A stretch of DNA of 64,000 nucleotides, taken from NCBI GenBank assembly GCA_002633005.1, contig NMRA01000093.1:314567-378566 (forward strand). Direction: 5' to 3'. Source of the DNA: Phoronis australis. Its lineage: Eukaryota > Animalia > Phoronida. Numbering within the stretch: position 1 is the stretch's first letter; every line of letters begins with the position of its first letter. Of this stretch, positions 1 through 56,895 are shown piece by piece. Both the position numbers and the translations under genes were made by a program. Below the pieces are notes generated by a model. The model saw only the letters and a list, made by a program, of their open reading frames with translations. It did not search any database and was not told the origin of the DNA.

Positions 1-749
1 TCTCAAGTAAATTCAGTAGCAATTTTCTACATATTGTCAATTTCAGTGTTCACGTCACGCTCATGATCATCATGAACAGCTAACATGCCTACTCCGACAA
101 AACTTTATATCAACTTTGAATGGAACTTGCGCGCACCCAGCCAGAGAAAATGGGAACTCGAATTTTTGAGAATGTGGGCCTTTTACTAAGATTCACGGGA
201 TACGTTCAAAGCTGTGAATTGTGCATTCACCGAATTTTGTTAGTTCTTGCCTTTTTAGAGTTTTTTTGTCTCCTTTTCTACCTTTTTGGAATTTTTGTTT
301 CTCTGAGGCGGACCTTTTTGTCCACTTCGCCAAATTGGTGCGCCCATGGAACAAGTAACACAGAAAATTAGTAAAATGAACTGAGTACAGGGTGAATATA
401 AAGTATGACATGTTCGACAATACAGTTGGAGTACCGAAAGTGGTACGCAATTTACGCTTTTGCTGCTGATCATGGTTGTGTTGGTAAGGGTCTCAGTACA
501 CTGCTATACCGCACCCGGGGGCCTGCTGAAAAGATATCAATCGCAATTTGGTATGTCAATGGCAGATACCAAAAACTAACATGATTTTTTTGATACAGTA
601 CTATAATTGTCATTGTTCTCTTTCGGTTTCACCAGCATGGTGGTTTTGATCGGTTCGTTGAGCTTCCAGGTTATTCTTGATCGAGCAAGCCAGTGCAACA
701 CGAAGGACTTGAAGTGACGGCGAAAATACGGTTTTCTTTCCACTGCCAC

Positions 750-884
750 CTTACGTAGTTGTGCTTGAGAGTTATGGTGTCGTGCGCCAATCGGACAGTT
801 CCAAATGAAGCAGCAGGTGGTTACGTGAAGTGCAAGCAGCAAACACATCGCCGCAACAAAGCTTCTACTCCGGATGACTTGCAT
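750..884 (-). CDS. Vasopressin/oxytocin-family (conopressin/vasotocin-like) neuropeptide precursor, first coding exon
   Basis: A tttcag acceptor at 891-892 precedes the ATG at 884. Translation MQVIRSRSFVAAMCLLLALHVTTC-CFIWNCPIG-ARHHNSQAQLRK gives a hydrophobic signal peptide followed directly by a C-x4-C-P-x-G nonapeptide (786-812). A phase-0 donor follows LRK (AAG|gtggca), matching the first intron position of VP/OT genes; an alternative donor C|gtaagg lies at 755. Confidence 0.8.
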
Positions 885-1662
885 GACTCCCTGAAACAAT
901 GAAATGCTGGCAATTAAAGGCCCATACGCCTAAAAACTAATCATGTCTCTTGACGCTGTTTTATGTGGTCCTTCTGTACAAAATAAATTTCAGGACGTTG
1001 GCCACCTATAGAAAATTGTCATAGCATTGCTTTTAAAAAAGCGTAAAGTATTTTAAAAAATACTTTACGCATGCGAAGTTTATTTTTCTGGGATACTAAT
1101 TCAGAGTAAACATTACTATGATAACGCATGCTCAGGTACAAAAAGCCATCTGCGAAGGTCATGAGATGTAATACAGAAATGGCGGAGATCCAAGATAGTC
1201 GTCCTGCATCCCACATATTTCTGAAATTGAAGAAGACATCGAAAATCCGACGAAATCCTATGAGACGTAGGCTTGTCGTATTACCGAGGACAAATAGTTC
1301 ACTGCTCCACCCAAAGCAGTGGTTGGTTTCTACCTAATCGTTAAAGCATGACTGGGTTAATAGTAAATATTCACTGACGCTACAAGGTTATAATAAAAGT
1401 AAGTCTTTCTTCCGTTGATTGTAATTTTCTAAGATCCGCATACTCGTCCTGACCACTTATTGAATCTTTGTCATATTTTGAAGAACACTTGGGTCGTCAC
1501 AGTCAGCAGACAACTTATCGTCCTAGTTATACGATTATCGTAAACTACAACTTTTAGCCTGAGCAGATTTTACCGTTTCATATAAGCAGTTACTCAATTT
1601 ACAGTTTACAGTTTAAGTTGGCAGGCTGACAAGCTGACTACAAGTTCGGTATTCATGGCTGA

Positions 1663-11296: not shown

Positions 11297-12382
11297 TCCT
11301 AACACCTCTGTGGAGGTTTTTCACGGACAACAAACGAGGAGACATTGTCAATGGCACGATTTAGCAAACTTTGACCTTGTTCCTTTTGTTAAAATAGATG
11401 CGAAAATGAATGCAAAACAATGATGACAATGACGACGACAAGGATCAATGATCATCATGATGGCTATGATGATAAATCGAGAACGAAGAAAAAAATTAAC
11501 AAATATTTCAAATAGTGCCAAATCTATCCACATACGAAATTTCTGAAATGTCTTTTAGGTGACAGTCGACCTACAGTATGGTTACGCACAAGTAGAAAAT
11601 TCCAAAAATAACCTCCACAGCGCCACCAATCCGGTTGTTCTTGTGTGCGCAGACAGCAAATCGATCAGCTTAAATAATGACATAAAATTAAGCCTAGTGC
11701 AGCGCTAATTGGAAACCCGTATATAAAATGGTAGAAAATTAAGCCCCGTGCAGTTCTAATTGGCAACTTGCACCAAAATTTCCGTTCGCGCTGACGTAAC
11801 AACATCTTAATCATGCAAATGAGACTTGTTGTTCATTANTCCTAACACCTCTGTGGAGGTTTTTCACGGACAACAAACTAGGAGACATTGTCAATGGCAC
11901 AATTTAGCAAAACTTTGACCTTGTTCCTTTTGTTAAAATAGATGCGAAAATGAATGCAAAACAATGATGACAATGATGACGACAAGGATCAATGATCATC
12001 ATGATGGCTGTGATGATAAATCGAGAACGAAGCAAAAAATTAACAAATATTTCAAATAGTGCCAAATCTATCCACATACGAAATTTCTGAAATGTCTTTT
12101 AGGTGACAGTCGACCTACAGTATGGTTACGCACAAGTAGAAAATTCCAAAAATAACCTCCACAGCGCCACCAATCCGGTTGTTCTTGTGTGCGCAGACAG
12201 CAAATCGATCAGCTTAAATAATGACATAAAATTAAGCCTAGTGCAGCGCTAATTGGAAACCCGTATATAAAATGGTAGAAAATTAAGCCCCGTGCAGTTC
12301 TAATTGGCAACTTGCACCAAAATTTCCGTTCGCGCTGACGTAACAACATCTTAATCATGCAAATGAGACTTGTTGTTCATTA
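11297..12382. repeat. ~543-bp direct duplication across the N at 11839 (probable allelic overlap)
   Basis: 11297-11838 versus 11840-12382, about six differences. Confidence 0.9.
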
Positions 12383-20300: not shown

Positions 20301-23300
20301 TTATTACATTGTTTTTCACTTAAACGGCTGTAACGGGCAAGGTGAGTGTCGGTTGGTTCCCAGATTTTGCATGCACCCCGTCAGGTCTTTAGCTTTACAT
20401 GTCGATACAAGTTTCACGGCGAGGTGACGAACAGAACTACCCTGGCTGTGTGCAATTTCGGGGTCTACGGAAGAAATACACACAGTGGTACCTAGCTGCA
20501 TTTTGACGACAGTCTTCACACAGTTAGCTGGCTGGCTAGGATCTACGCTGGGACCTCGCTAAAATCTAGCCAATATCACGTTTCCTCATTTAAAATGCAC
20601 GGCAATGTCTCACATAATCTCGCGAAGTCTTGCTTTTTAGCGAGGTCCTAGCGTTACCGAACTCTACCCTGGCTTGTGAGTAAACAATAAGACCACAAGA
20701 AACTTACCACGGACGATTCTTAACGCTGATGACGTGGGATCACGTGTTCCCGTTGTGATACACGAGTAGCCGTCTCCAGAACCTGAAAGCAATGAGCTGT
20801 GAACTTATTCAAGAATGAGAGTCCACCTTGCAGCCCAGATAGAGTATTTTATATGATTGTTTAAGCATTCCGTTAATATCTTTCCTGACCATATCCATGT
20901 CTTATTTCTATTATGTGGTCAAAATTATTTTAAAAAACATTATCTGGGCCCAGTTGCATAAAAGTTATACGCCGTATAACAACAATGACGTCGCATTATC
21001 ACGTGTCACGTTGTTATTGTTGAACAATGCACCTGACGTCATGCAACAATCAAACTTATCCAACGGATAACTTTTGAAGCTTTATGCAACTCACCCCTGA
21101 TTCATTCTGTTAAAAATCTTAAAGTGTGTATGCAGTGATGATGTTGGTTACTGCAATGCTCATTTTCAGTAAACTCTCCTGAAAGTGGTACGTCCATAAG
21201 TCAGAGCTTCGCTCCACTCGGGTAAGTACATGTACTCTCTGTGGACAAAATGAGCTCTACAGAAAAATCGGATTTTGCCTAACTGGGACAAAATTTCTCT
21301 GTCCTGTTGGATCCGACTTAGATGAGTTTTATATTGTTTCTTCTAACCCGATGTACCTATAACTGCTTTTAAATGTTTATCAATTCAGGGATTAAGTGAG
21401 ACCGCGTGGCCCTTATTTTGGAGATGCACGGTCATCCACAGCTGACGTCACTGATAGACTTTGTGATTGACAAAACGTTCGACTGTTTGAAGGTGAGGAG
21501 TCTGTGCGAGGGGAGGAATTCGAAAAAAGATTTCAAGTATGCCTGCAGACAGGTCAATGACTTCCGGCTTAAAGTAAGTTATATCCGGTTAACTTAACTC
21601 CGTCACTCATTACCCATTAACCAGTTTATATATATTGTAAAACAATTAGGGCACACCATTGTTTCCTTCTGTGAACCCAGCATGCACGGAGCAGGTAAAA
21701 CACCATTTCACGTGAGAAATAAAAAATATCGCGTTTTTGTCATATAGGCACACAATTGTTATAATTGCTACTCTGAAGTACTGTTTTTTGTGTGGTGGAA
21801 ATTTTATTGAGCATTCCATGCCAATTAACTTGTTGTGAATCACGTTTTGCTGTGCATTGCGTTCTTAAGATCGCTTGATGAATGGGAGGATGAGAGAAGT
21901 CAGATTCCTAACCTACATGTATCAAGAGATGAACGGAGTACGTGCTGTTTGAGTAGAGAAATTCCAGAAGGGTGGAGAATTGACCCATAGCCAGGACTTT
22001 GAGTGACGGATTAAATGACCAATCAGAATCCACTCTTGACACACCTTCGCTTTCAAGCCGCCAATTTACCCGACAAACACGTTGCCGAGCAAAACTTATT
22101 GTTTGTTGGTCGACATTTTGCGAGGGGCCGGAGCTTGCGATGGGTCAATTACAGGTAAATGGGTATATTGCTGCAACAGAACAATGGAGCTGAGAATTTT
22201 GAGTTCGTCTGAATTACGCAAAATTAAAATTTATCTGTATGGCGTTGTTAGGGAATAAATCCTAGCAGTTCCACAGAACTTTGTCCTAGTTAAGCGAGTT
22301 CTACTTGACATGTCATGCCTTGCTCTTCATTTAATTTTCTACACTGATCTGTTCAGTTAAAAAAGTCACAAATTAGAACATCATTTTGTATAACAGTTAC
22401 AAGGCAATAACCTCACAACTTGATACCGTTCAGAAGCAAGTTATTCTCAAAATAGAATTCCCTCACGTACAGTTTTCAAGAGTAAAAATGAACTACAAGC
22501 AGATACGAATTTTCAGTGTTTTGCCAGAATTCGGGTTTTTTATTCTTAATGAAACAAAAGAAATTAAGCCATTTTCAAGTTTTTAATCACAATTTCTTGC
22601 AATTTTCAGGAAAGGCGTTTCCAGCATTATGCAAAGAACTGTTGGGAGAACCAGGGGTGCAGCAGATCTTAAGCGAGAGAATTTGCTGCCAAGATAACAT
22701 TGGTCAGCATTTTGCAAAAACATCGGAAAGGGGACAAATTGTGCTCCAACAATTCAACAGTTTACCAATAGTGAACAGTTTTTAAATTGCTGTACTATTT
22801 TAGTATACACCCGGTGAAGGTTAACTGTCGTAGAGGAGCTGGACGGAAGTTAAGTGTACCTGCTGATGATACCCCAATTCCCAGAAGACCGTGATTATCA
22901 CAAGATAAAAACCAATCGTATTGGTACAGTAGTTTGATGGTTTCGGACTCCAAGTGGTCCCGTTTAAGGTCAAGTGGTGACTAGAAGGAATTTAGTCGTC
23001 AGATGGTAGTATCGTATGGCGAGACGGGTAGTCTTTGAGCATTGTTTGAATGTGTTTTTATGTACTGTGGGCCAGGATAATGGTATGTAGCAATACATGT
23101 ATAATTACTAATAGCTTTTCTTATAAACTGCCGACAGTGCTTATCTAAGAACACAATCTCACACTGGATTCTGTCACTAAAGAGTTACGTATCAAATTTT
23201 GATTTTAACAAATTAAACACCGGGTACGTTGTAGTCTGTTCGGCTATGATAGGAAAATGATAATAATGATTCATTCACATCAATTTCAATTAGTGATTGA

Positions 23301-26300
23301 TATAAAATTTAGATACAACAATTTTAAGCAGTGACAGACAATTTATTTACAACAAATTGGAATAGATATCAGTAACCAATGATTTATTTACAGTTCCAAC
23401 TTGTAGTGTTCCCTTCAAAGTCATTCATTTTGGAATTCCTTCCACACACTTTTCTCTCCCTTTCGCTACACTCTTTCAGACTTTGTGTTGTCCATTCTTT
23501 TTTAACACACGAGTAAACGCACTTCCCCAAATGGCGACATACTTTCTGGTAACAACCTTAAACAAAAAGTAACTCGCAGCCTCACTTTCAATTTCCCTTG
23601 CAATGTTGCATCAGCCATGCTGAATTTCTTCTGATGCAAAAATGTTCTCTATAACGGTTTGTTCATCGGAAACTTGACCTTTGCTCATGTTCAGCACTGT
23701 CCAAACAACAGCTTCAACTGTCCTAAAACACATAGACTTCATCATTCACTGTAATGATTCCACCACGGTTGAATCTATCAATCCAGATGGTTGTATACTC
23801 TAAACACGAACTCGCTTTACTATTTTCTGATGACCAACTCTCCAAAACATTTCTACATTCCCTATGAAAAATGTTCTCACTACGCGAAAACCGTTTCGTC
23901 AAACTAAAAGGGATGTACCCTGTCACGTAACATAATCTCATCTCGTCTTCGTTAGTCAAAGGAGTAGGCGCTTATGATTGTTTGCCCTTCTACTGGTACA
24001 TGTTATTTAAACCTGACAATGTTTCTAAACATTTGGCGCACAAGTCTTGAAGTAACAGGCTGTCGTCCAGCTGTACCTTATTCTTCGACATAAGTTCCCT
24101 CTACTTTGATTGGAACACTTTGGAAGTGCGAAACTCAGGAAACATGGTGAACATTTCACTCTTTTAAATACACTTAGTGTTCCACCATAGCAGCACTGTA
24201 CTATTAACCACATTTCTGTTGTAATGAAGTCCGAAAAACTGCAGATGTCACCCTGTTTCAAGGCGGCCGTTGCCTTTCGGACCTCTCGACCACGAGCACT
24301 GGAAAGGTTAATGGGGTCACTTATCATCTTGTCTAAGGCTTTCTGTAGCAAATGCAACGCTGGCAATGAAATGTTTTCTCTTGTGACAGGTTGGTTCTCT
24401 GGAAAAACATGAAATAGAGAACAATTAAAAATTAATATTAACAATACGACACATATGACTAATTATCTACAGAGACTTTGCCAAGTTTTCAGACAACGTA
24501 AAACAAATTTTTTTTACTGGATTCCATACGCTGTGGCTAAATAAATTTTAAATTAATAAATGATAACAATAACACGAGTTGAAATTTGCAGTTTTCGAGA
24601 TTCAGCATAAACCACGAACAAAAACGGACGAAAGTATGCCACAAAACAACCTTACGTCACTTTGCATTTACTACAAGCTGCATCTAATTTCGAGCCAGTC
24701 TACCAATTGAGCTTAGACACAATCGCTGATCGTGATTAACTGTAGCTGCTAACTCGCCATTTACGGCATTACGCCTACTTTACAGACCCACAGCGTGTAA
24801 ATTTTATAGCATCATTATAGTTCATTGAACTGACCTCCTATGCTATTGTCTGTATCTTTGTCGCCAAGAGAGTGTGTAAAATTTATCACGTCATTTTCAC
24901 TTTCAGAGTCCACTTGTTCACCTAATCCAATACAGTACCCGAGTAATTCTCAATTTCAAAATCTTCTCTCTTAACAGCAGCCATTTTCTTCGTTTGTGTA
25001 CAACCGGAAACACCGAGTAACAGGGGACAGTGTACACGTGACTGTCTCGGAGAATTGGCGACCCGTTACTAATGAACTGTGAAAACCATTTGGATATAAT
25101 TGCAGGATTAAACTCGAAGCAATGACGGGACCAAAGACGACCCTGGTAGTTTCTACTCCTCTCCCGGTATACTGAGCTCATTGCTGAAAGATAATCAAGA
25201 AGTGACATATTTCACCCAACGTTTTTTTATTAAGGTTTCGGACATGTGTCCTCAGACGACAAAACGTGTCGAGAAAGTGACAAATGCGCATACAGAATTG
25301 TCCGAAAAATAAACTTTCTGTCAATGCATAGACATGGTTCAAAACGCCCTTTCACGTTATTTATGTGTTTTCCCCATTATTTTTCCACTCCAAGACCAAA
25401 CACTTTGAAACTTGGACAGTATCACCTGTTCTCAGCCTCAATGCATCAGTTTACACAGTCTATGTATAAAGTATTGGAGCTATTCATCACAGGGTAGGCA
25501 GGTTATGTTACTATGTTAGGAAATGTTATTGTCCCACATAACATCCACTCTCAATGCAGGTGGCTCACTTGATCAAGTGAAGGGCGTTGAATTAAGGCAG
25601 GTTGACTCAATAATACTAGCTCGTGTAACAAAGCCATGGACGGTTCAAAATCAATGGTGGTGTGCACATGAAGTTTGCCAATTGATTTGAAAATAACAGC
25701 TTCTTTAAGTGCGAGATCATTTACCAGTGAAACAGGCTGACGTACAATAGTTGAGTGAAGTAGCATGTATCTTTAATGTAAGGCAAGGTTCTTGAGTCAC
25801 TGACACGAAAGCAACCTGAATATTCGTCTAAATGGAGTTACTCAGGAGATACAGGTATGACTGGGCGTGTTGTAACCATGTTTGTGTGGAACTATATTTT
25901 GGTGGAATAGGAATAATGCAGAGAAGCGCAATTTTGATCAAAAATAAAAATTAAAAGACCACTTTTAATATATGGAAAATACGAAACTTGATCATAAAGA
26001 CCGAATCTTAATCACCAAAACTCTCGGTTTGTTGAACATTATACGTGTAGCATCAGCCGTCCGCCTCACCAAAAGAATTTATGAAGTCAGTAAACTTATT
26101 GGAGAATTTATCCGATATATATCACCAAAATAAAACAAACTGTGCCAGTGCTGAAATAAGAAGAGGACGCATGAAAGATTAATGAAAATGAAAGTGGCCA
26201 AGTTAAATTAGCATTCAATTGGTTTTAACATTTCAGTTGCAAAGAACAAGGCAAATTGGAAGAAATGTCCTTTTTTCGGTATTGTCGGCGACCTTATTTC

Positions 26301-29300
26301 AACTGAAAACGTTAAAACACGAACTTATAAGCCTTTTTATAAGACTATTCTAACAAACTGGAACACCCAAAAATCGATTGTCAATTTTCCATAACTCATT
26401 AAAAGTACACGATGCAAAGTCTGCTTACGCAGGTTTTTACATAAGTTTTTTAGTTACGAATTTGACAACACGAGTTACGCAGATTTACAGATTTGCGGAA
26501 AAACTTTCACAAATTTCTAGTTACTCATCATTGTGGGAAAGCAAGGTCATACAGCGCCACCTATAGGTTACTTACATGACCAACACAAAATTTATATTTC
26601 ATCCAGACAAGGTTCTCAATCATAATTTAGTAATTATCAAATAAACCAGTTGAGACACTGTATTCTCCTTAATGNTTCGGGGTCTACGGAAGAAATACAC
26701 ACAGTGGTACCTAGCCGTATTTTGACGACAGTCTTCACACAGTTAGCTGGCTGGCTAGGATCTACGCCGGGACCTCGCTAAAATCTAGCCAATAACACGT
26801 TTCCTCATTTAAAATGCACGGCAATGTCTCACATAATCTCGCGAAGTCTTGCTTTTTAGCGAGGTCCTAGCGTTACCGAACTCTACCCTGGCTTGTGAGT
26901 GAACAATAAGACCACAGGAAACTTACCACGGACGATTCTTAACGCTGATGACGTGGGGTCACGTGTTCCCGTTGTGATACACGAGTAGCCGTCTCCAGAA
27001 CCTGAAAGCAATGAGCTGTGAACTTATTCAGGAATTAGAGTCCACCTTGCAGCCCAGATAGAGTATTTTATATGATTGTTTAAGCATTCGGTAATATCAT
27101 TCCTGACTATCATATCCATGTCTTATTTCTATTATGTGGTCAAAATTATTTTTAAAAAACATTATCTGGGCCCAGTTGCATAAAAGTTATACGCCGTATA
27201 ACAACAATGACGTCGCGTTATCACGTGTCACGTTGTTATTGTTGAACAATGCACCTGACGTCATGCAAAAATCAAACTTATCAAGCGGATAACTTTTGAA
27301 GCTTTATACAACTCACCCCTGATTGATTCTTTTAAAGATCTTAAAGTGTGTATGCAGTAATGATGTTGGTTACTGCAATGCTCATTTTCAGTAAACTCTC
27401 CTGAAAGTGGCACGTCCACAAGTCAGAGCTTCGCTCCACTCGGGTAAGTACATGTACTCTCTGTGGACAAGATGAGCTCTACAGAAAAATCGGATTTTGC
27501 CTAACAGGGACAAAATTTCTCGGTCCTGTTGGATCCGACTTATGTGAGTTTTATATTGTTTTTTCTAACCCAATGTACCTATAATTGCTTTTGAAATGTT
27601 TATCAATTCAGTATCTTCTAGGGTTTAAGTGAGACCGCGTTGCCCTTATTTTTGAGCTGCAAGGTCATCTACAGCTGACGTCATTGATAGACTTTGTCCG
27701 AATGATTGACAAAATTTTCGACTCTTTGAATGTCAGGAGTCTGTGCGAGGGGAGGAATTCGAAGAAAGATTTCAAGTATGCCAGCAGACAAGTCAATGAC
27801 TTCCGGCTTAAAGTAAGTTATATCCGGTTAACTTAACTCCATCACTCATTACCCATTAACCAGTTTATATATATTGTAAGATAATTAGGGCACACCATTG
27901 TTTCCTTCTGTGAACCCAGCATGCACGGAGCAGATAAAAACACGTCCATTTTACGTGAGAAATAAAAAACGGATTTTTGCCAAATAGGCACACAATTGTT
28001 ATAGTTACTAGTTTGAAGTAAGTACTGTTTGTTTGTGTGGTGGAAATTTTATTGAGCATTCCATGACAATTAACTTGTTGTGAATCACGTTTTGCTTTGG
28101 ATTAAGTTCTTACAATCGCTTGATGAATGGGAGGATGGGAGAAGTCAGATTCCTAACCTACATGTATCAAGAGATGAACGGAGTAGGTGCTGTTTGAGTA
28201 GAGAAATTCCAGAAGGGTGGAGAATTGACCTACAGCCAGGAATTTGAGTGACTGGTTAACTGACCAATCAGAATCTAGCACTCTTGGCACACCTTCGCTT
28301 TCAAGCCGCCATTTCACCCGACAAACAACACGTTGCCGAGCAAAACTTATTGTTTGTTGGTCGACTATTTGCGAGGCCGGGGCTTAGCCTGCGATGGGTC
28401 AATTACAGGTAAATGGGTATATTGCTGCAACAGAACTCGCTTAAGTCGGATCCAATGGAGCTGAGAATTTTGATTTCGTCTGAATTACGCGAAATTAAAT
28501 TTCATCTGTATGGCTTTGTTAGGGAATAAATCCTAACACTTCCACAGAACTTTGTCCTAGTTAAGCGAGTTCAACTTGGCATGTCATGCCTTGCTGTTCA
28601 TTTAGTTTTCTACACTGATCTGTTCAGTTAAAAAAGTCACAAATAAGAACATCCTCTTGTATACCATTTACAAGGCAATAACCTCACAACTTGATACCAT
28701 TCAGAAGCAAGTTATTCTCAAAATAGAATTCCCTCAAGTGGAGTTTTCTAGAGTAACAATGAACTACAAGCAGATATGAATTTTCCGTGTTTTGCCTGAA
28801 TTCAGGTTTTTTATTCTTAGTGAAACAAAAGAAATTAAACCATTTTCAAGTTTTTAATCACAATTTCTTGCAATTTTCAGGAAAGGCATTTCCAGCATTG
28901 TGCAAAGAACTGTTGGGAGAAGCAGGGGTGTAGCAGATCTTAAGCGAGAGAATTTGCTGCCAAGATAACGTTGGTCAGCATTTTGCCAAACATCGGAAAG
29001 CGTGTGGGACAAATTGTGCTCCAACAATTCAACAGTTTACCAATAATGAACAGTTTTTAAATTGTTTTACTATTTCAGTATACACCCGGTGAAGGTTAAC
29101 TGTCGTAGATGAGCTGGACGGAAATTAAATGTACCTGCTGATGATACCCCAATTCCCAAAAGACCGTGATTATCACAAGATAAAAACCAATCGTATTGGT
29201 ATAGTAGTTTGATGGTTTCGGACTCCAAGTTGTCCCGTTTAAGGTGACTAGAAGGAATTTATTCGTCAGATGGTAGTAGTGTATGGCGAGACGGGTAGTG

Positions 29301-32300
29301 TTTGAGCATTGTTTGAATCTATTTTTATGTACTGTGGGCCAGGATAATGGTATGTAGCAATACATGTATAATTACTAATAGCTTTTCTTATAAACTGCCG
29401 ACAGTGCTTATCTAAGAACACAATCTCACACTGGATTCTATCACTAAAGAGTTACGTATCAAATTTTGATTTTACAAATTAAACACCGGGTACGTTGTAG
29501 TCTGTTCGGCTATGACAGGAAAATGATAATAATGATTCATTCACATCAATTTCAAGTAGTGATTGATATAAAATTTAGATACAACGATTTTAAGCAGTGA
29601 CAGACAATTTATTTACAACAAATTGGAATAGATATCAGTAACCAATGATTTATTTACAGTTTCAACTTGTAGTGTTCCCTTCAAAGTCATTCATTTTGGA
29701 ACTCCTTCCACAAACTTTTCTTTCCCTTTCGCTACACTCTTTCAGACTTGGTGTTGTCCATTCTTTTTAACACACGAGTAAACGCACTTCCCCAAATGGC
29801 GACATACTTTCTGGTAACAACCTTAAACAAAAAGTAACTCACAGCCTCACTTTCAATTTCCCTTGCAATGTTGCATCAGCCATGCTGAATTTCTTCTGAT
29901 GCAAAAATGTTCTCTATAACGGTTTGTTCATCGGGAACTTGACCTTTGCTCATGTTCAGCACTGTCCAAACAACAGCTTCAACTGTCCTAAAACACATAG
30001 TCTTCATCATTCACTGTAATGATTCCACCACGGTTGAATCTATCAATCCAGATGGTTGTATACTCTAAAAACGAACTCGCTTTACTATTTTCTGATGACC
30101 AACTCTCCAAAACATTTCTACATTCCCTATGAAAAATGTTCTCACTACGCGAAAACCGTTTCGTCAAACTAAAAGGGATGTACCCTGTCACGTAACATAA
30201 CCTCATCTCGTCTTCGTTAGTCAAAGGAGTAGGCGCTTCTGATTGTTTGCCCTTCTACTGGTACTTTACACCTGACAATGTTTCTAAACATTGGCGCACA
30301 AGTCTTGAAGCAACAGGCTGTCGTCCAGCTGCACTTTATTCTTCGACATAAGCTCCCTCTACTTTGCTTGGAACATTTTGGAAGTGCGAAACTCAGGGAA
30401 CTTGGTGAACATTTCACTCTTTTAAATACACTTAGTGTTCCACCATAGCAGCACTGTACTGTTAACCACATTTCTGTTGTAATGAAGTCCGAAAAACTGC
30501 AGATGTCACCCTGTTTCAAGCCGGCCGTTGCCTTTCGGACCTCTCGACCACGAGCACTGGAAAGGTTCATGGTGTCACTTATCATCTTGTCTAAGGCTTT
30601 CTGTAGCAAATGCAACGCTGGCAATGAAATGTTTTCTCTTGTGACAGGTTGGTTCTCTGGAAAAACATGAAATAGAGAACAATTAAAAATCAATATTAAC
30701 AGTATGACACATATGACTAATTAACTACAGACACTTTGCCTAGATTTCAGACAACGTAAAACAATTTTTTTTACTGGATTCCATACGCTGTGGCTAAATA
30801 AATTTTAAATTAATAAATGATAACAATAACACGAGTTGAAATTTGCAGTTTTCGAGATTCAGCATAAACCACGAACAAAAACGGACGAAAGTATGCCACA
30901 AAACAACCTTACGTCACTTTGCATTTACTACAAGCTGCATCTAATTTCGAGCCAGTCTACCAATTGAGCTTAGACACAATCGCTGATCGTGATTAACTGT
31001 AGCTGCTAACTCGCCATTTACGGCATTACGCCTACTTTACAGACCCACAGCGTGTAAATTTTATAGCATCATTATAGTTCATTGAACTGACCTCCTATGC
31101 TATTGTCTGTATCTTTGTCGCCAAGAGAGTGTGTAAAATTTATCACGTCATTTTCACTTTCAGAGTCCACTTGTTCACCTAATCCAATACAGTACCCGAG
31201 TAATTCTCAATTTCAAAATCTTCTCTCTTAACAGCAGCCATTTTCTTCGTTTGTGTACAACCGGAAACACCGAGTAACAGGGGACAGTGTACACGTGACT
31301 GTCTCGGAGAATTGGCGACCCGTTACTAATGAACTGTGAAAACCATTTGGATATAATTGCAGGATTAAACTCGAAGCAATGACGGGACCAAAGACGACCC
31401 TGGTAGTTTCTACTCCTCTCCCGGTATACTGAGCTCATTGCTGAAAGATAATCAAGAAGTGACATATTTCACCCAACGTTTTTTTATTAAGGTTTCGGAC
31501 ATGTGTCCTCAGACGACAAAACGTGTCGAGAAAGTGACAAATGCGCATACAGAATTGTCCGAAAAATAAACTTTCTGTCAATGCATAGACATGGTTCAAA
31601 ACGCCCTTTCACGTTATTTATGTGTTTTCCCCATTATTTTTCCACTCCAAGACCAAACACTTTGAAACTTGGACAGTATCACCTGTTCTCAGCCTCAATG
31701 CATCAGTTTACACAGTCTATGTATAAAGTATTGGAGCTATTCATCACAGGGTAGGCAGGTTATGTTACTATGTTAGGAAATGTTATTGTCCCACATAACA
31801 TCCACTCTCAATGCAGGTGGCTCACTTGATCAAGTGAAGGGCGTTGAATTAAGGCAGGTTGACTCAATAATACTAGCTCGTGTAACAAAGCCATGGACGG
31901 TTCAAAATCAATGGTGGTGTGCACATGAAGTTTGCCAATTGATTTGAAAATAACAGCTTCTTTAAGTGCGAGATCATTTACCAGTGAAACAGGCTGACGT
32001 ACAATAGTTGAGTGAAGTAGCATGTATCTTTAATGTAAGGCAAGGTTCTTGAGTCACTGACACGAAAGCAACCTGAATATTCGTCTAAATGGAGTTACTC
32101 AGGAGATACAGGTATGACTGGGCGTGTTGTAACCATGTTTGTGTGGAACTATATTTTGGTGGAATAGGAATAATGCAGAGAAGCGCAATTTTGATCAAAA
32201 ATAAAAATTAAAAGACCACTTTTAATATATGGAAAATACGAAACTTGATCATAAAGACCGAATCTTAATCACCAAAACTCTCGGTTTGTTGAACATTATA

Positions 32301-35300
32301 CGTGTAGCATCAGCCGTCTGCCTCACCAAAAGAATTTATGAAGTCAGTAAACTTATTGGATAATTTATCCGATATATATCACCAAAGTAAAACAAACTGT
32401 GCCAGTGCTGAAATAAGAAGAGGACGCATGAAAGATTAATGAAAATGAAAGTGGCCAAGTTAAATTAGCATTCAATTGGTTTTAACATTTCAGTTGCAAA
32501 GAACAAGGCAAATTGGAAGAAATGTCCTTTTTTTCGGTATTGTCGGCGACCTTATTTCAACTGAAAACGTTAAAACACGAACTTATAAGCCTTTTTATAA
32601 GACTGTTCTAACAAACTGGAACACCCAAAAATAGATTGTCAATTTTCCATAACTCATTAAAAGTACACGATGCAAAGTCTGCTTTCGCAGGTTTTTAACA
32701 TAAATTTCTTAGTTACGAATTTGACAACACTCGTTACGCAAATTTACAGATTTGTGGAAAAACTTTCACAAATTTCTAGCTACGCATCATTGTGGGAAAG
32801 CAAGATCATACAGCGCCACCTATAGGATACTTACATGCCCAAAACAAAATTTATATTTCATCGAGACAAGGTTCTCAATCATAATTTAGTAATTATCAAA
32901 TAAACCAGTTGAGACACTGTATACTCCTTAATGTTTTGTACAAAATGTCAGAGCAGCAGATATTTATGCAGATATTTACGCAGAACGTACATGAACAACA
33001 TTTTTTTCATTTTAAAGATAAACGTAGGTTTTGTGCTGAGAAACGATTAATAAGTAAGTTACGATTAATATACACTTCATGTAGATAAATCGATCTAAAC
33101 TAAAACTTACCTTGTAGTTAACATACAATTCGAGAGAGGGTGCTTTTGACTGACGGTGTGGACATCTTTTTCCTTCTCGTTTCTTCAAGCCCCTTTTCCA
33201 CGTTATTTCACGGTCAAAACTCTATCCAGTTTCTTTCAAAATATGAGTGTTTTCTGTTTGTACGCTTTATATTGTTATTTGTACCACAATATCAGCTTCA
33301 AATGGTCAATACAACCGTTTAATAACCCATTTAGTTATCTAACGGCGTCAAATAACATTTTGGCGGGAAACCGAGGCCGGTTTCGAACCCGGTTCGCCAG
33401 AGTTACTGGCTGTCGACTTACCACTGCACCACTCAACTGCGGACGATACCGAACGTGAAAATAGAATACTTAAAGGAGAATGCCACCCGATTTAATTAGC
33501 CTTTTTTACCGTTTTAATCGGTCTATATCTACGGTCGATCGATCTTACCTCGCCGAGAGGTGTCGCGTTAACCTGTGAGCAAGGTGAGAAGCGACGTAGC
33601 GACGTCAGTAGTTCTTCGGCAGAGTTAGTACCGCTATGGCGTGGTGTACCGTTCCTGCTTGTGCGAATTATGAAGCTGCGAAGAAAGCGGGTATATCGTT
33701 TTTTGGATTTCCTCGAGAGCCCGTAATGATTCGGAAGTGGCTCGCGGTAGTGAAGAATGAAAAGTACGCCGTTAATACCAAGTATGAGGCCGTGAAACTT
33801 CTCCAAGTGTCTGTCATTGTCCTGCACTTCGTCGGATCGGTTATTGATCACTTTTTGATTATGGAGAATTGTAGTTGGCCATGAAAGCATAAACAAAAAG
33901 TGATCAATAACCGATTCAAACGGTTTTAGGAACTATTCGTATGTTCCGTTGTCTGTGCACGCTCACGGAGCCTCTCTATTATTTCTTGATCAGCTAGTAC
34001 TGAGTAAATTTGAAATTTTGCGGTTAATTTACCAAAATAGTCAGCGTGCACATTTTTTCATTGGCTCACTAGTATAGTCTTTTCGTAACTGCAAGACAGT
34101 TTAGTTTCCAACTTTGGCTGGTTTATGTTAGTCATGTCTGCAGTCCTGCCGCGATGGGCCTGAACGGGTTTCGAGCCACTGGCCGGAATAGCAAGCGTTT
34201 TTTGTGTTTAGAATTGAAACAATCGCAAATCTAAAATTTCAACACGCAACTATGTTCTCCTGTCTGTATTTNACACCCAAAAATCGATTGTCAATTTTCC
34301 ATAACTCATTAAAAGTACACGATGCAAAGTCTGCTTACGCAGGTTTTTACATAAGTTTTTTAGTTACGAATTTGACAACACGAGTTACGCAGATTTACAG
34401 ATTTGCGGAAAAACTTTCACAAATTTCTAGTTACTCATCATTGTGGGAAAGCAAGGTCATACAGCGCCACCTATAGGTTACTTACATGACCAACACAAAA
34501 TTTATATTTCATCCAGACAAGGTTCTCAATCATAATTTAGTAATTATCAAATAAACCAGTTGAGACACTGTATTCTCCTTAATGTTTTGTACAAATTGTC
34601 AGAGCAGCATGAACAACATTTTTTCATTTTAAAGATAACGTAGGTTTTGTGCTGAGAAACGATTAATAAGTAAGTTACAATATATACTTCATGTAGATAA
34701 ATCGATCTAAACTAAAACTTACCTTGTAGTTAACATACAATTCGAGAGAGGGTGCTTTTGACTGACGGTGTGGACATCTTTTTCCTTCTCATTTCTTCAA
34801 GCCCTTTTTCACGTTATTTCACGGTCAAAACTCTATCCAGTTTCTTTCAAAATATGAGTGTTTTCTGTTTGTACGCTTTATATTGTTATTTGTACCACAA
34901 TATCAGCCTCAAATGGTCAATACAACCGTTAAATTAATAACCCATTTAGTTATCTAACGGCGTCAAATAACATTTTGGCGGGAAACCGAGGCCGGTTTCG
35001 AACCCGGTTCGCCAGAGTTACTAGCTGTCGACTTACCACAGCACCACTCAACTGCGGACGATACCGAACGTGAAAATAGAATACTTAAAGGAGAATGCCA
35101 CCCGATTTAATTAGCCTTTTTTACCGTTTTAATCGGTCTATATCTGCGGTCGATCGATCTTACCTCGCCAAGAGGTGTCGCGTTAACCTGTGAGCAAGGT
35201 GAGAAGCGACGTAGCGACGTCAGTAGTTCTTCGGCAGAGTTAGTACCGCTATGGCGTGGTGTACTGTTCCTGCTTGTGCGAACTATGAAGCTGCGAAGAA

Positions 35301-38300
35301 AGCGGGTATATCGTTTTTTGGATTTCCTCGAGAGCCCGTAATGATTCGGAAGTGGCTCGCGGTAGTGAAGAATGAAAAGTACGCCGTTAATACCAAGTAT
35401 GAGGCCGTGAAACTTCTCCAAGTGTCTGTCATTGGCCTGCACTTCGTCGGATCGGTTATTGATCACTTTTTGATTATGGAGAATTGTAGTTGGCCATGAA
35501 AGCATAAACAAAAAGTGATCAATAACCGATTCAAACGGTTTTAGGAACTATTCGTATGTTCCGTTGTCTGTGCACGCTCACGGAGCCTCTCTATTATTTC
35601 TTGATCAGCTAGTACTGAGTAAATTTGAAATTTTGCGGTTAATTTACCAAAAAAGTCAGCGTGCACATTTTTTCATTGGCTCACTAGTATAGTCTTTTCG
35701 TAACTGGAAGTTTAGTTTCCAACTTTGGCTGGTTTATGTTAGTCATGTCTGCAGTCCTGCCGCGATGGGCCTGAACGGGTTTCGAGCCACTGGCCGGAAT
35801 AGCAAGCGTTTTTTGTGTTTAGAATTGAAACAATCGCAAATCTAAAATTTCAACACGCAACTATGTTCTCTTGTCTGTATTTCAGGGAATAATAATTTGA
35901 ATTTTTCACCAAGCAGGCCTCAAACTCCCGCGACCGACCTTGCGGTAAATTGGCCTTAGGCCTACCGAACTTTGTAGGCTCTGGTATGTTCAAATACCTA
36001 AAATCCGTAACAGCAAAATAAAATAACACGTTTGTTTAATAACTTGATGTATTTTAAAGGATTTTTCTATCGGATTTTGATGATTTGTTGGTGTAAAACG
36101 ATGAATTCAAGCGATAAGCTGACACCAGCAGGCGTGTTGTGAACTGCTGAACAGACTGCATTCGAACCACTAACGTCATTGGTTAATTTCAACAACTCCG
36201 TCTGCCGTCAGGTGTCAGGTAAAAGAGCTGTACTTGCTGTTATCGAGTGGAACTACTCGATCTAAATTGATACAAAATATGTTGTTTTTTGAGTGACATT
36301 CTCCTTTAAATGAGCACGCGCAACAATCGCGTGTTAACAAACGGCATTGTACCGACATTTATACGCTATGAAAAATTAGACGAAAATTTTCAATAAAAAC
36401 GACATCTTTGATTCAGTAAAATTTTCTCTCACTATTAAATCATCGATCTCCAGTTTGAATGCGACTAACGTGTGGTCGGGATGCTTTAACTTGGACATTA
36501 AACTCAGTAATCAGAGGTAACCTACTTTAGCAGACGATATTTTCACTGTGGAAGCTTAGCATAAGTTGTTTTATAAGCTAGAGTAGTTGCTTAAAATAAA
36601 AATTGACCTATCGCCAGGATTTTGAGTGACGGCTTAATTGACAATTTAGAACGGAGCATTATTGACACACCTTCTTTTACCAGCCCCCATTTTACCCGAC
36701 AAACAAGAGGTTGCAGGGTAAAACTTATTGTTCGGTAGTACATTACACAAGGGGGCGGAGCTTGCTGTAGGTCAATTATTTTACAGATTCACTTTAGTTC
36801 TAATTTGGTTCAATTTTTATTTGATTTTCAGTAAAACATCATTTTAACAAGAAAAAATCGGTGTTTCTTGAAAGGTAACGACCTTCGACCTCAGGCCTCT
36901 GACGTAGAAAGTAGTTGCAAAAGCCGAGGCGAGTTGAGAAAGGTAGATCGATTCATTGCAATGTTTCTCGCTCAGTATGTTGTACAAATAGCTTGTATCC
37001 CTGCCTGTTACTATAACAAATGCAATCATTTTGATGCACGTAGGGACAAGAAGAAGCTTTCAGCTGAAATGCATAACTCCTTTTTCTCCGTCGAAGAATT
37101 TATTAAAATCATGAGCTTACCCGCTGGAATTACGCCTAGGCGAACTGAAGTTGGTGGGAAATAGCTCAAATCTTCCGTCGGAGAAATTTCGTTTTCTTTC
37201 GCAGTGCGGTCCAGCAGACCATTGATGACGTCAGCGACAGTTCCGTCACCCCCCACGGCAATTACTCTGAAATGAAAACCCATTGGAATGTGGATAATAT
37301 TGAGAAAAGGATTTGGCATATTTGAATCTCCAAATGATAATTCCGTGTTTTTACAACTTACCCATCAATTCTAGACAAGTCATACTTCTGCAGCATCTCT
37401 GTCGATTGTCTACCTCTCTCAGTAACTAAAATAAATGAACATTTTGATAACATCTGTCAGTTTTTTTCTTCTTCATCAAATCATTCCCTACGCACAACTT
37501 GCGTTTCAAGCATGAAAGTCCCAAGCAGCGCCATATTTGGAAACCATTGATTTGATTCGTGTTTCAAGTGAAGCTCTTTGGGTTTTTTTATTGTTTTAAG
37601 TAAAACACCTAGCGTTCCTCACGGCACACGATAAAACCACGGTCCCAATGGAGCTCAAGTGCTTCAACGGGAAGTTTGTTTGATGTCCTACATGCGAACC
37701 CGGATGTAATGACTCGGTTTGCACACTGATTCATTGGCGTTTGACTAATTATTTTGGGACTAACCAACCAACAACACAACAAACGGGAGCACCTTACTTC
37801 AATTTGATTTATGCTATTCGTAATTTCGGCTTGATCTACAGCGCTGTATGGGTCTCCCTAGGTGTAACAGCATAGCGTTACCGCAAAACACCTTTTCTCT
37901 GTTCCTCTTTGCAAACGCTGTCGCTAAGGAGTACTTCACTACACTTACAACGACAGGTCTCGTCGGTATACTGCTACATGGCACTTAAAACGACATGTCT
38001 ATTAGGATATATTTCAAGTATACAATGTGCTTACGTCGACGGTTCTTTTGTGTTATACTTCCACTACACTTACAACGACAGGATGCGTATGTCATACTTC
38101 CTCTACACTTCCAACTGAATGCCTCTTATGGTAGACTCCTACTATTCTTAAAACTACAGGTCTCTTAGCTACTCTTTTGTCTAAATCGAAGCAAGTGGAG
38201 TAAATTTGTCACAAATCATAATACAGGGCAAGCCGGGGAGCGTCCTGCTTGTATAGCGAAATATTTGCGAAATTCCCCCGAGTATGAACGTGAGTTTTGT

Positions 38301-41300
38301 TTTATATTTGGTGCAGACAAAAACTTGGTGGATTTTTGAGCTCGCCTGGTCAACAACTAAGCTACAGCAGATGTCCCGGCACACAAGAAGGCCAGACCCG
38401 GCCTTGCAATGGCAGTTTCCCACAACAACGTTAATGTAAAACAGACAATTGTATCTATGAAAAGTAAAGTCCCAGGCGTACACCTTCTTTAAATGTGCTC
38501 CAGATTTCAGTGTACCTAGACCTCCGGCTTCTGTTAGTAGGTGGAGTCTATTAGGGACCCAACTTCTATTGAAAACTTTACGGTACATGAATATTGACGG
38601 ACAGTTTGTACTCTTTTGCTGCACTGGACTATTGAGGTCTTGTTGGTTGGGCCATTTTAATCATTTAGCCAACAAGAAAAAATGCTTTCTATCTTATTGG
38701 TACTAATAGGAATTGTTTATACTGGTGAAACAACATGTATCGCAATAGACCTTTTAATGCGCATGCCTGGAATGACGACTGATAGGAAATACGGACTGGT
38801 CTCGCGTTGACTTTTGTACATATAGTAGTATACAGCCAAACGGCAAATGTGCTGTAGTATGATAGTCGTCTGTTCCCAACAGATTGAAAGATCCTGGCAG
38901 TGCACCAGTGAGTACGTTTCCAGCCACAAGGTGGCGAGGATGAAGGACACTCCACAAATATTTATTCGAGCACGCGCATGCATCAGATGTTGATGCACGC
39001 TATTGGTAAAAACGCCGAGCTGTATTTTGTTAATATATCTAGCAAACCGTCATTCTAGACATGTGTAATATAAGAGCAAGCTCACGTAAAAAGGAACATG
39101 TTAACAGACCTACGACGTGAGTGGCAATCCCGGCAAGTTTGAAATATGGAGCGCACTTCTCGTTGTAAAGTTTTAACCCCTTATTACTGCCGCTGTCGGG
39201 GTTGACGAAAACTAAAAGTGATTTCGGACGTCCTTTTGAAGACTCTGAAAAATAATTACATAATAATTTTATTAAGTTGTGTAAAAACAAATGAAATATC
39301 AATACCGCCGAGTCAGAATATTCAACCACTACTGAAAGTTGACAAACTATGTGTATTGATTAAATAGTGGCACATAACGCGAAAAACAAACTAAATTGCA
39401 TTAGTGAAAGAGGTTCTATGCCACTTAAACGGAAATTAAAATGTTCACCATGTATTTTTGCGGTTTGTATGTAAAAATTTTTGAATATCTGTTGATGTCA
39501 AAGCTTTTTTCCTTTAGTTTAAAATTTCAAAACAACGTCACCTTATTTGGTATGATAAGGCGTAGACGTGGCACGTTTCCCATAATACATGAAAAATGTG
39601 TCATTCGAACTTTCATGTAAACAAACCAGTAGCGGTTACGAACATGGGGAATGTTTGTGGTAATTCTTTGAGCGCGTGCGCGCACATATTTAATAGGGCC
39701 GAGAATATGGAAACTGTCCCGGGATGAAAGAGTGAATCTGACTCTTTAAATGATCAATTTGTTAACGTTGATGTTCGTATAGTTAAAGTGGCCTAAAACG
39801 TGAAAAGCATACTACACTGCGTTATTCAAAGTGGTTCTCTGCCACTGAAACAGAAGTCAAACTCTTCACCGAGTATTTTTTCGGTTTGTTCGTAATCACT
39901 CGGGATTTCTGTTGAGGTCAAAGCGTTTTTCCTTTAGTTTCAAATTTCGAAAAACGATCTGTCAATTGCTTGTCACTTCGTTGACTTTTCTCCCACACGG
40001 CAAAGCACCACTCCTTATTTCGTATGGCAAGGCATAGATGTAGCACATTTCTTTTATACGGCAAATTTGACCTTTGACTTTTGATGTGAACAATGGAGAT
40101 TTCAAGCAGCAGCCAATGCAACGTCTTTGAGCGCATGAGCGCTTATATATTATTAGGAGTGGAGAATTTGAGAGCTGTATTGGGACCAAAGAATTTTATC
40201 GTCTGTGTTTCAAAAATCACGAAATTGAGTTTGTCTTGACATTCTTGCAATATTCAAATTGAATAACTCTAACGTTAGTATCCCCAAGAAGTAGATTTGC
40301 CACACTCTGAAATTTTTACGTTTGTTGCGTTCCAAGCAGTGGGTGTACAACATACAGCAACATGTTGCACTTATTATTCAAAATACGAAATAAAACACTA
40401 AATCAAAAATAGGTCTTTTTATAATTTTGATAAAAAACTCAAAAGTTTCATCAAACGAAAAACAATTGATAATTTAAAGTCTGCCACAGTTTTAATGAGA
40501 TTTCCTCGTGAAATTTATATCAAACAAAATGTTTCTTGTTGCATTTCTTCTTGTTAAATCTTAGTATAGTAGTGGTTCACCAACAAGATGGTCGCCAGTT
40601 GCACGACATTGAACTGAACTCAGTTCACGTCCTATGATCCTAGAAAAAAGAACATAAACAATGAAATTCTCCCAGGCTTTAGTTAATTAAATGTTTTTTG
40701 TAGTGTTGTTCTTCCATTGACGAGACTAATTCTGTTGAAAACCGGTGAGAATAAAGGAAGGAAACAAGAAGTTATATCTCCGGCATGCAGGCAAAGACCA
40801 TTCCTATAAGAATGTAAGAGGTTAGTGCACGTCCCTTTTGCTTCTATCAACCAAAAAGAAACGGTTGCAATTCTGTAAATTATCAGCTTAAAATGTAATT
40901 TATGTGAACTCAGACCTGACAGGCGAACTTCAATCTCTTTTAGCCAACGTCCTATCTCTTGCTCATCCGGGAATTTCAGTTTCAGTGCACGTGGTTCCAA
41001 CAACATGTGCTTTTTCCTTATACTATAATGAAGACTGAGAGTGGCAGCGTCATCCTCGGATCTCAAACAAGCAATGACGTCCTTCAGGTCTATGGTATCT
41101 AAAATACATTTTCTGGGTAACTACCTTGGCAATAAATGAAACAATGCTCAGCCAAAACGTATCAGCCAAGACAACGGTATAGGTCTGTTTGGGGAATTTG
41201 ATGCAACGTAGCGTTCTCACCAGGCAATTTAAGTGTAGTGGGCCACCACGCTTAAATTTCTAATCTCCACAATCAAATTGGATGACCATGCTCATATTGC

Positions 41301-44312: not shown

Positions 44313-44738
44313 GGGAGCCCCAACTGGGAATTGAACCACAGGTCTCTAAATTGCCGGTCCAGTGCCCTTACCAGTGAGCTACTGAGGACCCGATATCTGT
44401 ATAATTACTGTTTAAAGTCAACTGTTATGTCATACATCCCGTGAGCGGCGTTTCGCCCTTTTCACACGAGATTTGGACAAATATAATTATACAAGCAGCA
44501 ATTTACCAGTATGTGTTAATTAGTTATAGTAAATATATAGGCGTTGAGGTTGGCCAGTAGAGAAATATATAAAATAAACATAAAAAAATCAGGAGCCCCA
44601 CTCTGGGACTCGAGCTCCAGGTATGACACAACAGTTGGCTTTAAACAGTATAATTACGTAAATAGTCGGGTCCTCAGGAGCTCAGTGGAAAGAGCGCTAG
44701 ACCGGCAATCTAGACACCTGTGGTTCGATTGGGGCTCC
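44313..44738. repeat. Inverted pair of tRNA-derived repeats (~120-bp arms)
   Basis: 44313-44435 is an imperfect reverse complement of 44621-44738; A-box agctcagtgg, B-box ggttcga. Confidence 0.75.
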
Positions 44739-56784: not shown

Positions 56785-56895
56785 TTAGTCGTCGTATTGT
56801 TCATCAACCATGGCTTCGCAATCATCCTCGTCGACCTTACCATTTTGCTTATAGGTGACATATTGCACGGGACACTGCTCGTTCATGATCAGAGA
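56785..56895 (-). CDS. Vmat: VMAT last coding exon ([36 protein letters not shown])
   Basis: tttcag acceptor, phase 0; completes the EEKLSLI dileucine-type motif and the acidic tail; TAA at 56785-56787. Confidence 0.9.
   Translation of the reverse strand, partial: SLIMNEQCPVQYVTYKQNGKVDEDDCEAMVDEQYDD

What the first reader, a model, noticed from the sequence alone, without database searches (positions are those of the whole stretch)
470..892. Atypical oxytocin/vasopressin-family precursor: CFIWNCPIG without GKR, and no neurophysin in view
Seen: a signal peptide is followed directly by CFIWNCPIG (786-812), then ARHHNSQAQLRK and a splice donor. Known: VP/OT-family precursors are signal + C-x4-C-P-x-G + GKR + Cys-rich neurophysin (e.g. 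conopressin CFIRNCPKG, cephalotocin CYFRNCPIG). This one has Trp at position 4, and GKR is replaced by A-R, predicting a non-amidated or C-terminally extended peptide. The Ala codon GCA is one base from Gly. No neurophysin exon is visible in 1-750. The nearest good acceptor (526-527) gives only QAPGCGIAVY* (donor at 750) or PGPRVRYSSVLRPLPTQP* (donor at 755), and unspliced read-through also lacks neurophysin. Inference: a divergent paralog that may have lost neurophysin and amidation and could signal through its own receptor.
Basis: partly seen in the sequence, partly recalled or inferred. Interest (0 to 1): 0.85.

Follow-up and report, generated by a model that had tools for sequence, protein, structure and literature searches.

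The report
Oxytocin-family gene missing its amidation site
This animal DNA holds the first coding exon of an oxytocin/vasopressin-family hormone gene whose usual cut-and-amidate signal Gly-Lys-Arg reads Ala-Arg-His, so it is predicted to give an unamidated, extended peptide, while its carrier domain (neurophysin) likely lies beyond the edge of the sequence rather than being lost.

Summary
In detail: signal peptide, then CFIWNCPIG (812-786, minus strand), no GKR, and no neurophysin in the window; this is far beyond chance (0 of 300 simulated windows). Trp4 is not new: all four phoronid vasotocin 'paralog 2' peptides of Thiel et al. 2021 carry it, and Phoronis australis shares CFIWNCPI. The exon has canonical register (9+3+9 residues ending QLRK at a phase-0 GT), so Ala-Arg-His stands where Gly-Lys/Arg-Arg belongs; one base error cannot restore it. 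Neurophysin loss is not shown: only 749 bases remain downstream, 6 of 8 neighbouring introns are longer, and the acceptor at 526 is no more frequent than chance. Against that, the 526 exon starts with a neurophysin-like Cys-Gly (p about 0.004, post hoc) and is followed by a Cys-rich frame, though with no Pfam or PDB neurophysin match. No read covers the exon in 35 million RNA reads, where a neural control gene is only weakly covered. Best reading (0.5): a divergent, non-amidated vasotocin paralog with neurophysin outside the window; pseudogene 0.22; working neurophysin-less precursor 0.2. Non-amidation has precedents (Ciona, heteronemerteans, a remipede). Taxon not determined.

The parts
891..892 (-). 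Splice acceptor AG (TTTCAG) 6 bases before the ATG; implies an upstream, probably non-coding exon (inferred)
   Evidence: sequence
813..884 (-). Predicted signal peptide, 24 aa, ending Thr-Thr-Cys; the -1 Cys codon is one base from Gly or Ser
786..812 (-). Nonapeptide CFIWNCPIG (Cys1, Cys6, Pro7, Gly9; Trp4)
777..785 (-). Ala-Arg-His (GCA CGA CAC) in the place of the amidation/cleavage triplet; two single-base differences from Gly-Arg-Arg
750..776 (-). Nine-residue linker HNSQAQLRK; ends 21 residues after Cys1, the register seen before the first neurophysin Cys in known precursors
744..757 (-). Two overlapping donor candidates: TAC|GTAAGG (after 755, phase 1, 85th percentile) and AAG|GTGGCA (after 750, phase 0, 42nd percentile)
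576..749 (-). Read-through frame open 57 more codons (3% of background positions), GC 0.43-0.50 down to about 630, with donor candidates after 633 (phase 0, 97th percentile) and 581 (phase 1, 95th); a longer exon 1 is possible
493..527 (-). Acceptor AG 527-526 (NAGNAG) and ten codons QAPGCGIAVY then stop; candidate short exon 2 or decayed start of a neurophysin exon; unproven
255..500 (-). Cys-rich open frame after CAG 503-501 (7 Cys in the first 50 codons, no Gly there, no Cys-Cys pair); its last third lies in a repeat; no neurophysin match

Best explanation
This is the first coding exon of a vasopressin/oxytocin-family precursor gene whose amidation and cleavage triplet reads Ala-Arg-His; it is likely a divergent second paralog that splices to a neurophysin exon beyond the left edge of the window, and it is predicted to yield a non-amidated, C-terminally extended ring peptide. 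Shown: leader, nonapeptide, Ala-Arg-His, a nine-residue linker ending QLRK at a GT. Inferred: signal peptidase cuts between Cys24 and Cys25, Cys1-Cys6 form the ring, neurophysin carries the precursor into granules as in other family members; with no Gly before a basic site the amidating enzyme has no substrate, so release would need the single Arg11 (giving the free acid CFIWNCPIGA) or Arg20-Lys21 (a 19-mer), and is probably inefficient. The peptide would most likely act, more weakly, on the ordinary vasotocin-type receptor, as the non-amidated Ciona peptide acts on its family receptor.
For: Family identity beyond chance. Eight-residue identity CFIWNCPI with P. australis paralog 2; Trp4 in 4 of 4 phoronid paralog-2 peptides and 0 of the 34 other aligned precursors. 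Register 9+3+9 to the phase-0 GT equals the distance from Cys1 to the first neurophysin Cys in Novocrania paralog 2; QLRK is the very sequence before that Cys in Novocrania paralog 1; 17 of 33 printed precursors have [RK][RKQ] there (counted by eye; window values). Intron positions are reported conserved from vertebrates to amphioxus and insects (passages). All 38 aligned precursors keep neurophysin, including 8 nemertean ones that lost GKR and the ring cysteines; Ciona and Speleonectes lost GKR and are described with family-type precursors. 6 of 8 introns of the neighbouring VMAT and ceramide-kinase-like genes exceed 750 bases (2 read-confirmed, 6 estimated). No AATAAA/ATTAAA in 1-749 (weak, about one expected).
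Against: No read or contig covers 403-938 in runs X1-X4, while VMAT has spliced reads in X1 and X3 and low exon depth in all three raw-read runs. The phase-0 donor scores poorly (42nd percentile; model from only 9 donors) and the RK could be a by-product of the stronger GTAAG donor five bases earlier. The 526 acceptor is the only one of 482 acceptor-like sites in the window with Cys-Gly at codon 4 or 5 in phase 0 (simulated 0.0022 per site), its ten codons score in the top 0.6% of a coding null (1 of 6 segments tested), and the next frame has 7 Cys in 50 codons against a mean of 1.67: this is what a decayed exon 2 inside the window might look like. Exon 1 itself did not score above the same weak coding null (33% of null higher). 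No neurophysin exon was seen; the taxon is not established.
Confidence: 0.5

Rival explanations
1. A young non-functional duplicate: a copy of a vasotocin paralog that has begun to decay, losing the amidation Gly and the second basic residue, gaining a Cys at the signal cleavage site and a weak donor, and no longer transcribed.
For: Three conserved positions are each one base from the expected residue; weak phase-0 donor; 0 depth in 35,106,444 reads of X1-X3 and the X4 contigs; multi-copy vasopressin loci with at least one broken copy are described in Locusta (passages).
Against: The 45-codon frame, start, leader hydrophobicity and all four defining ring/tail residues are intact. The RNA test is weak: only 18-19% of each run was read, the neural control has depth 0-5, and the exon is at the 5' end.
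Confidence: 0.22
2. One reading: a working precursor that has shed neurophysin. Exon 1 splices over a 224-base intron to 525, adds ten residues (the ruin of the neurophysin start) and stops; the disulfide ring alone sorts it to granules and a long non-amidated peptide is released at Arg-Lys.
For: Cys-Gly at the expected codon after the 526 acceptor (about 0.004 for two sites, post hoc), coding-like score, GC rise to 0.5 and a Cys-rich following frame; by eye Q-x-x-x-C-G-I is in register with the P. australis paralog-2 neurophysin start. Neurophysin was lost repeatedly in the sister NPS/NG-peptide/CCAP branch (passages); the vasopressin ring can sort a reporter to granules (abstract); Veenstra speculated on such loss in Locusta (passage).
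Against: No reads at 403-536 either; no Pfam or PDB neurophysin match for any frame or for the frameshift read-through; the Cys-rich frame has no Gly in its first 50 codons, no Cys-Cys pair and no Glu-Asn, and scores as non-coding (87% of null higher); no polyadenylation hexamer; 38 of 38 aligned relatives keep neurophysin; acceptor density is at chance level.
Confidence: 0.2
3. An assembly or allele error hides an ordinary amidated hormone: GCA is really GGA, giving Gly-Gly-Arg and an amidated nonapeptide cut at a single Arg.
For: The assembly is a draft with allelic copies joined head to tail at single Ns; single-Arg Gly-Arg sites occur in hoplonemertean paralog-2 precursors.
Against: One correction gives G-R-H, not GKR or GRR; a canonical site needs at least two changes. 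No DNA reads were available to test it.
Confidence: 0.05
4. A chance open frame that mimics a hormone exon.
For: No database homolog was recovered and no transcript.
Against: 0 of 300 simulations and 0 of 104 empirical chance matches combine nonapeptide and signal peptide; upstream acceptor, register and QLRK fit; the searches have no power on a 9-residue core.
Confidence: 0.02

Closest known systems
Phoronid vasotocin-related paralog 2 (P. australis, P. psammophila, P. ijimai, Phoronopsis harmeri; Thiel et al. 2021, PMC8557429, supplement)
   Same: Trp at position 4; CFIWNCPI identical in P. australis, CFIWNCP in P. psammophila; peptide directly after the signal peptide; P. ijimai also has Ala-Arg at positions 10-11.
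   Different: All four keep GKR and a neurophysin, and have 9-11-residue peptides without Gly9; leader and linker do not resemble the window's, so this is not one of those four sequences. Orthology versus convergence was not tested.
Brachiopod vasotocin-related paralogs (Lingula, Glottidia, Novocrania; same source)
   Same: C-P-[IL]-G tail and leader ending H-x-T-[TS]-x in Lingula/Glottidia paralog 2; 21 residues from Cys1 to the neurophysin in Novocrania paralog 2; QLRK before the first neurophysin Cys in Novocrania paralog 1.
   Different: Arg or Lys at position 4, intact GKR, neurophysin present.
Ciona vasopressin (Ci-VP) and other non-amidated members (heteronemertean paralog 2; Speleonectes inotocin-like precursor)
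   Same: No amidation signal; Ci-VP is C-terminally extended and has a known family receptor (passages); Speleonectes lacks the dibasic site altogether.
   Different: Ci-VP has lost Pro7 and Gly9; heteronemertean peptides lost the cysteines but keep a Lys-Lys site; the window keeps a textbook nonapeptide and loses only the processing triplet.
CCAP / NPS / holothurian NG-peptide precursors
   Same: Descendants of a VP/OT-like precursor that lost neurophysin (passages): the model for the neurophysin-loss rival.
   Different: A separate paralogous branch with other peptide motifs; the window's peptide is VP/OT-type.

Membership tests
Vasopressin/oxytocin (vasotocin-neurophysin) precursors | Signal peptide followed directly by one peptide copy | tested here: met
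   Met + 24-aa hydrophobic leader, hydropathy test passed; no dedicated signal-peptide predictor was available
Vasopressin/oxytocin (vasotocin-neurophysin) precursors | C-x4-C-P-x-G nonapeptide | tested here: met
   CFIWNCPIG at 812-786; consensus as in PMC5153645. Pfam gave no hit for the 45-aa exon
Vasopressin/oxytocin (vasotocin-neurophysin) precursors | Gly + dibasic amidation/cleavage site after the peptide | tested here: not met
   Ala-Arg-His. Usual, not universal: 109 of 110 arthropod and 30 of 38 spiralian precursors have it
Vasopressin/oxytocin (vasotocin-neurophysin) precursors | C-terminal Cys-rich neurophysin | tested here: inconclusive
   None in the window; sequence left of the window not held; no reads to show exon 2
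Vasopressin/oxytocin (vasotocin-neurophysin) precursors | First intron just before the neurophysin core | tested here: inconclusive
   A phase-0 GT sits 21 residues after Cys1 but scores weakly, and three other donors compete; the phase of the canonical intron is recalled, its conservation is from passages
Vasopressin/oxytocin (vasotocin-neurophysin) precursors | Mature peptide activates a VP/OT-type GPCR | not testable with these tools
   needs a receptor assay
Lophophorate vasotocin paralog 2 | Trp4 (phoronid) peptide signature | tested here: met
   compared by eye
Lophophorate vasotocin paralog 2 | Neurophysin groups with paralog 2 in a tree; host is a phoronid or brachiopod | not testable with these tools
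   no neurophysin sequence; VMAT exon homologs at most 72% identical over most of the exon and mostly unnamed; ceramide-kinase exon search gave nothing
CCAP / NPS / NG peptides | PFCNAF-type or Asn-Gly peptide motif | tested here: not met
   neither motif is in the exon (motifs as given)

The most novel reading that the evidence does not exclude
A working oxytocin/vasopressin-type gene that has discarded both amidation and neurophysin, with the ruin of its neurophysin exon still visible 224 bases downstream: a VP/OT-branch precursor caught repeating the step that produced CCAP and NPS, its ring sorting itself into granules and released as a long free-acid peptide.
Probability: 0.2. Interest if true: 0.72.

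Novelty: new variant of a known kind. Interest (0 to 1): 0.42.

Why it matters
If expressed, it is a natural test of whether the C-terminal amide and the GKR cut, kept in almost all members for over 500 million years, are needed when the ring and tail are intact, and it adds a Trp4 ligand for structure-activity work on VP/OT receptors. If neurophysin is truly gone, it would be a VP/OT-type precursor working without its carrier, something I did not find described (searches found none for this branch; subscription journals are mostly not covered) and that bears on the open question of what neurophysin is for. If neurophysin lies outside the window, it is one more divergent paralog of a kind already catalogued.

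Tried and rejected
Homolog searches with the 45-aa exon found nothing real: 3 candidates, none at E<=10; 2 hits among 1.84 billion representatives, both repeat-driven artefacts; none in the PDB; exact sequences not in the collection. The ESM Atlas gave no answer. No own genome is held, so a second canonical gene and receptors could not be sought. The run search listed no RNA holder; no DNA run was laid, so GCA is unverified. A metagenome pattern scan gave 104 stretches, all judged chance, no relative. Earlier scan findings: none near, in the genome or by sequence; one unrelated by words. Taxon: VMAT and ceramide-kinase exon searches and an Rfam/tRNA scan were uninformative. Full-text searches for CFIWNCPIG (0 papers) and six shorter variants (1 unrelated paper); supplement searches in PMC6425005 (only the P. 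psammophila precursor; one file cut when stored) and PMC10508912 (none). Bugula, xenacoelomorph (table), hemichordate and amphioxus peptides do not match. Folding of 440-560 is unremarkable (z 0.17). No other signal-plus-GKR neuropeptide exon in the window. A frameshift-aware alignment of 525-350 with the phoronid paralog-2 neurophysins was not run; by eye only short pieces match (C-G-I, C-H-x-L-x3-C), which I judge within chance for a Cys-rich query.

Full report
OBSERVATION. On the minus strand an ATG at 884 opens a 24-residue hydrophobic leader, then CFIWNCPIG (812-786), then ARHHNSQAQLRK ending at 750. An acceptor TTTCAG ends six bases before the ATG. No neurophysin motif occurs in any frame of the 64 kb, and 14 minus-strand frames between 30 and 884 gave no neurophysin or hormone family in Pfam at E<=10. 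The feature is not chance: 300 Markov simulations of the window gave 0 strict nonapeptide matches and 12 loose ones, none behind a signal peptide; among 104 chance matches to the first seven residues in metagenomes, 9 had Gly9, 1 passed the signal test, none both.

CONTEXT. The window is animal DNA of about 40% GC from a draft assembly in which near-identical copies lie head to tail at single Ns. The other genes found are a vesicular monoamine transporter (VMAT, about 63.0-56.8 kb) and the first exons of a ceramide-kinase-like gene (41.0-37.1 kb), both on the minus strand. The taxon could not be fixed; the peptide points to a lophophorate, which is an inference from eight residues.

WHAT IT RESEMBLES. 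The supplement of Thiel et al. 2021 (PMC8557429; I read the abstract, passages, section 12, and supplement parts 28 and 215 plus search hits) lists two vasotocin paralogs in phoronids, brachiopods and nemerteans. All four phoronid paralog-2 peptides have Trp4; P. australis begins CFIWNCPI and P. psammophila CFIWNCP. In their alignment Trp4 occurs in 4 of 38 rows, GKR in 30 of 38, neurophysin in 38 of 38 (counted by eye). So Trp4 is not new. The window's leader and linker match none of the 33 precursors printed in part 28 (the list runs on into a part I did not read), and CFIWNCPIG itself was in no searched paper or searched supplement.

THE PROCESSING SITE. From Cys1 to the GT after 750 there are exactly 21 codons: 9 + 3 + 9. 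That equals the distance from Cys1 to the first neurophysin Cys in Novocrania paralog 2, and QLRK is the sequence before that Cys in Novocrania paralog 1; 17 of 33 printed precursors have [RK][RKQ] there. In this register Ala-Arg-His (GCA CGA CAC) occupies the GKR slot; it is two single-base differences from Gly-Arg-Arg, a variant reported for elephant-shark vasotocin (passage). One sequencing error therefore cannot make it canonical. Loss of amidation has precedents: Ciona VP (passages), heteronemertean paralog 2, and 1 of 110 arthropod precursors with no dibasic site at all (passages of PMC5153645). By the usual rules for single-Arg sites (recalled) Arg11 lacks a helper basic residue upstream, so release is predicted to be poor.

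IS NEUROPHYSIN LOST? For retention outside the window: only 749 bases follow the exon; the two read-confirmed VMAT introns are 1057 and 893 bases and six estimated introns are about 125, 640, 890, 1655, 1790 and 1830, so 6 of 8 are longer; acceptor-like sites occur at 3.8 per kb and 2 lie in the 749 bases; there is no polyadenylation hexamer there (weak); even relatives that lost the ring cysteines keep neurophysin. For loss: the 526 acceptor is the only one of 482 such sites in the window with Cys-Gly at codon 4 or 5 in phase 0, the place of the second neurophysin Cys (0.0022 per site in simulation); its ten codons score in the top 0.6% of a coding null, one of six segments tested with a model trained on ten exons, under which exon 1 itself was not distinguishable from the null; and a frame starting at 500 has 7 Cys in 50 codons (background mean 1.67; 0 of 332 overlapping windows). 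These tests were made after seeing the sequence. That frame has no Gly in those 50 codons, no Cys-Cys pair, scores as non-coding, and neither it nor a read-through across a one-base shift matches neurophysin in Pfam or the PDB. The donor is also open: with a matrix from 9 donors of this window (2 confirmed), the sites after 633, 581, 755 and 750 rank at the 97th, 95th, 85th and 42nd percentile, and the frame stays open and GC-rich to about 630, so exon 1 may carry a longer basic linker.

EXPRESSION. Three raw RNA runs with the same species label (35,106,444 records, 18-19% of each run) and one contig set gave zero depth over 403-938 at 90% likeness. The control shows the right organism and some neural RNA: VMAT has strand-consistent reads, 12 of them spliced at two introns, at depths of 0-5. 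Absence is thus real but weak evidence: it supports no splice model and leaves a rare or stage-specific transcript possible.

MECHANISM AND RIVALS. Most likely (0.5) an expressed-somewhere divergent paralog with neurophysin beyond the window and a free-acid, extended peptide acting on the ordinary vasotocin receptor; Thiel et al. found no receptor duplication matching the phoronid and brachiopod paralog pairs, which argues against a private receptor if the host is a lophophorate. Rivals: a decaying copy (0.22); a working neurophysin-less precursor (0.2), for which the sister CCAP/NPS/NG branch gives precedent (PMC4422128, passages), the vasopressin ring is reported to sort cargo by itself (PMC8807871, abstract), and Locusta shows conserved first exons with poorly conserved later ones (PMC4237046, passages); an assembly error (0.05); chance (0.02). 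Two full-text searches for neurophysin loss found nothing for the VP/OT branch; most subscription journals are not covered, and bioRxiv supplements could not be seen.

PAPERS SEEN. Passages only: PMC4990251, bioRxiv 10.1101/265579, PMC5153645, PMC3308954, PMC3316597, PMC10508912 (plus supplement search), PMC3969558, PMC4237046, PMC4422128. Passages and one section: PMC7181382 (section 4), PMC2656470 (section 10). Abstract and outline: PMC8807871. Supplement search only: PMC6425005.

VERDICT. A real VP/OT-family exon with a truly degenerate processing site: a new variant of a known kind. The headline claim of neurophysin loss is unproven and more likely an edge-of-window effect, but not excluded. 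Interest 0.42; 0.72 if the neurophysin-less reading is confirmed.

Noticed in passing
window 864-881 (-): The leader begins M-QVIRSR; QVIRSR is also the start of the predicted mature paralog-2 peptide of the hoplonemertean Paranemertes peregrina. Different place in the precursor; probably coincidence.
   Followed up: no
window 56790-63010 (-): VMAT (SLC18) gene, transcribed and spliced in the RNA runs (introns 1057 and 893 bases), 3' untranslated region reaching at least 55300.
   Followed up: partly
window 37116-41050 (-): Three exons of a ceramide-kinase-like gene (Pfam DAGK_cat); motif scans found no later exons in the window, so the gene is cut by the assembly or truncated.
   Followed up: partly
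window 11297-12382, 20457-32936, 32621-35882, 41463-43207: Head-to-tail copies 95-99% identical, each joined at a single N: most likely uncollapsed alleles, a sign of a draft assembly of a heterozygous animal.
   Followed up: no
window 33612-33884 and 35227-35499 (+): THAP-domain frame (Pfam E 6.8e-08 for the first copy), present twice through one of the duplications; probably a transposon remnant.
   Followed up: no
window 44316-44388 (-): tRNA-like stretch (Rfam 36 bits) not called by ARAGORN, inside an inverted repeat pair 44329-44730; possibly a tRNA-derived repeat.
   Followed up: no
window 135-350: Dispersed repeat that attracts over a thousand partly matching RNA reads per run at mostly 90-95% identity; not evidence of expression of this locus.
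   Followed up: partly
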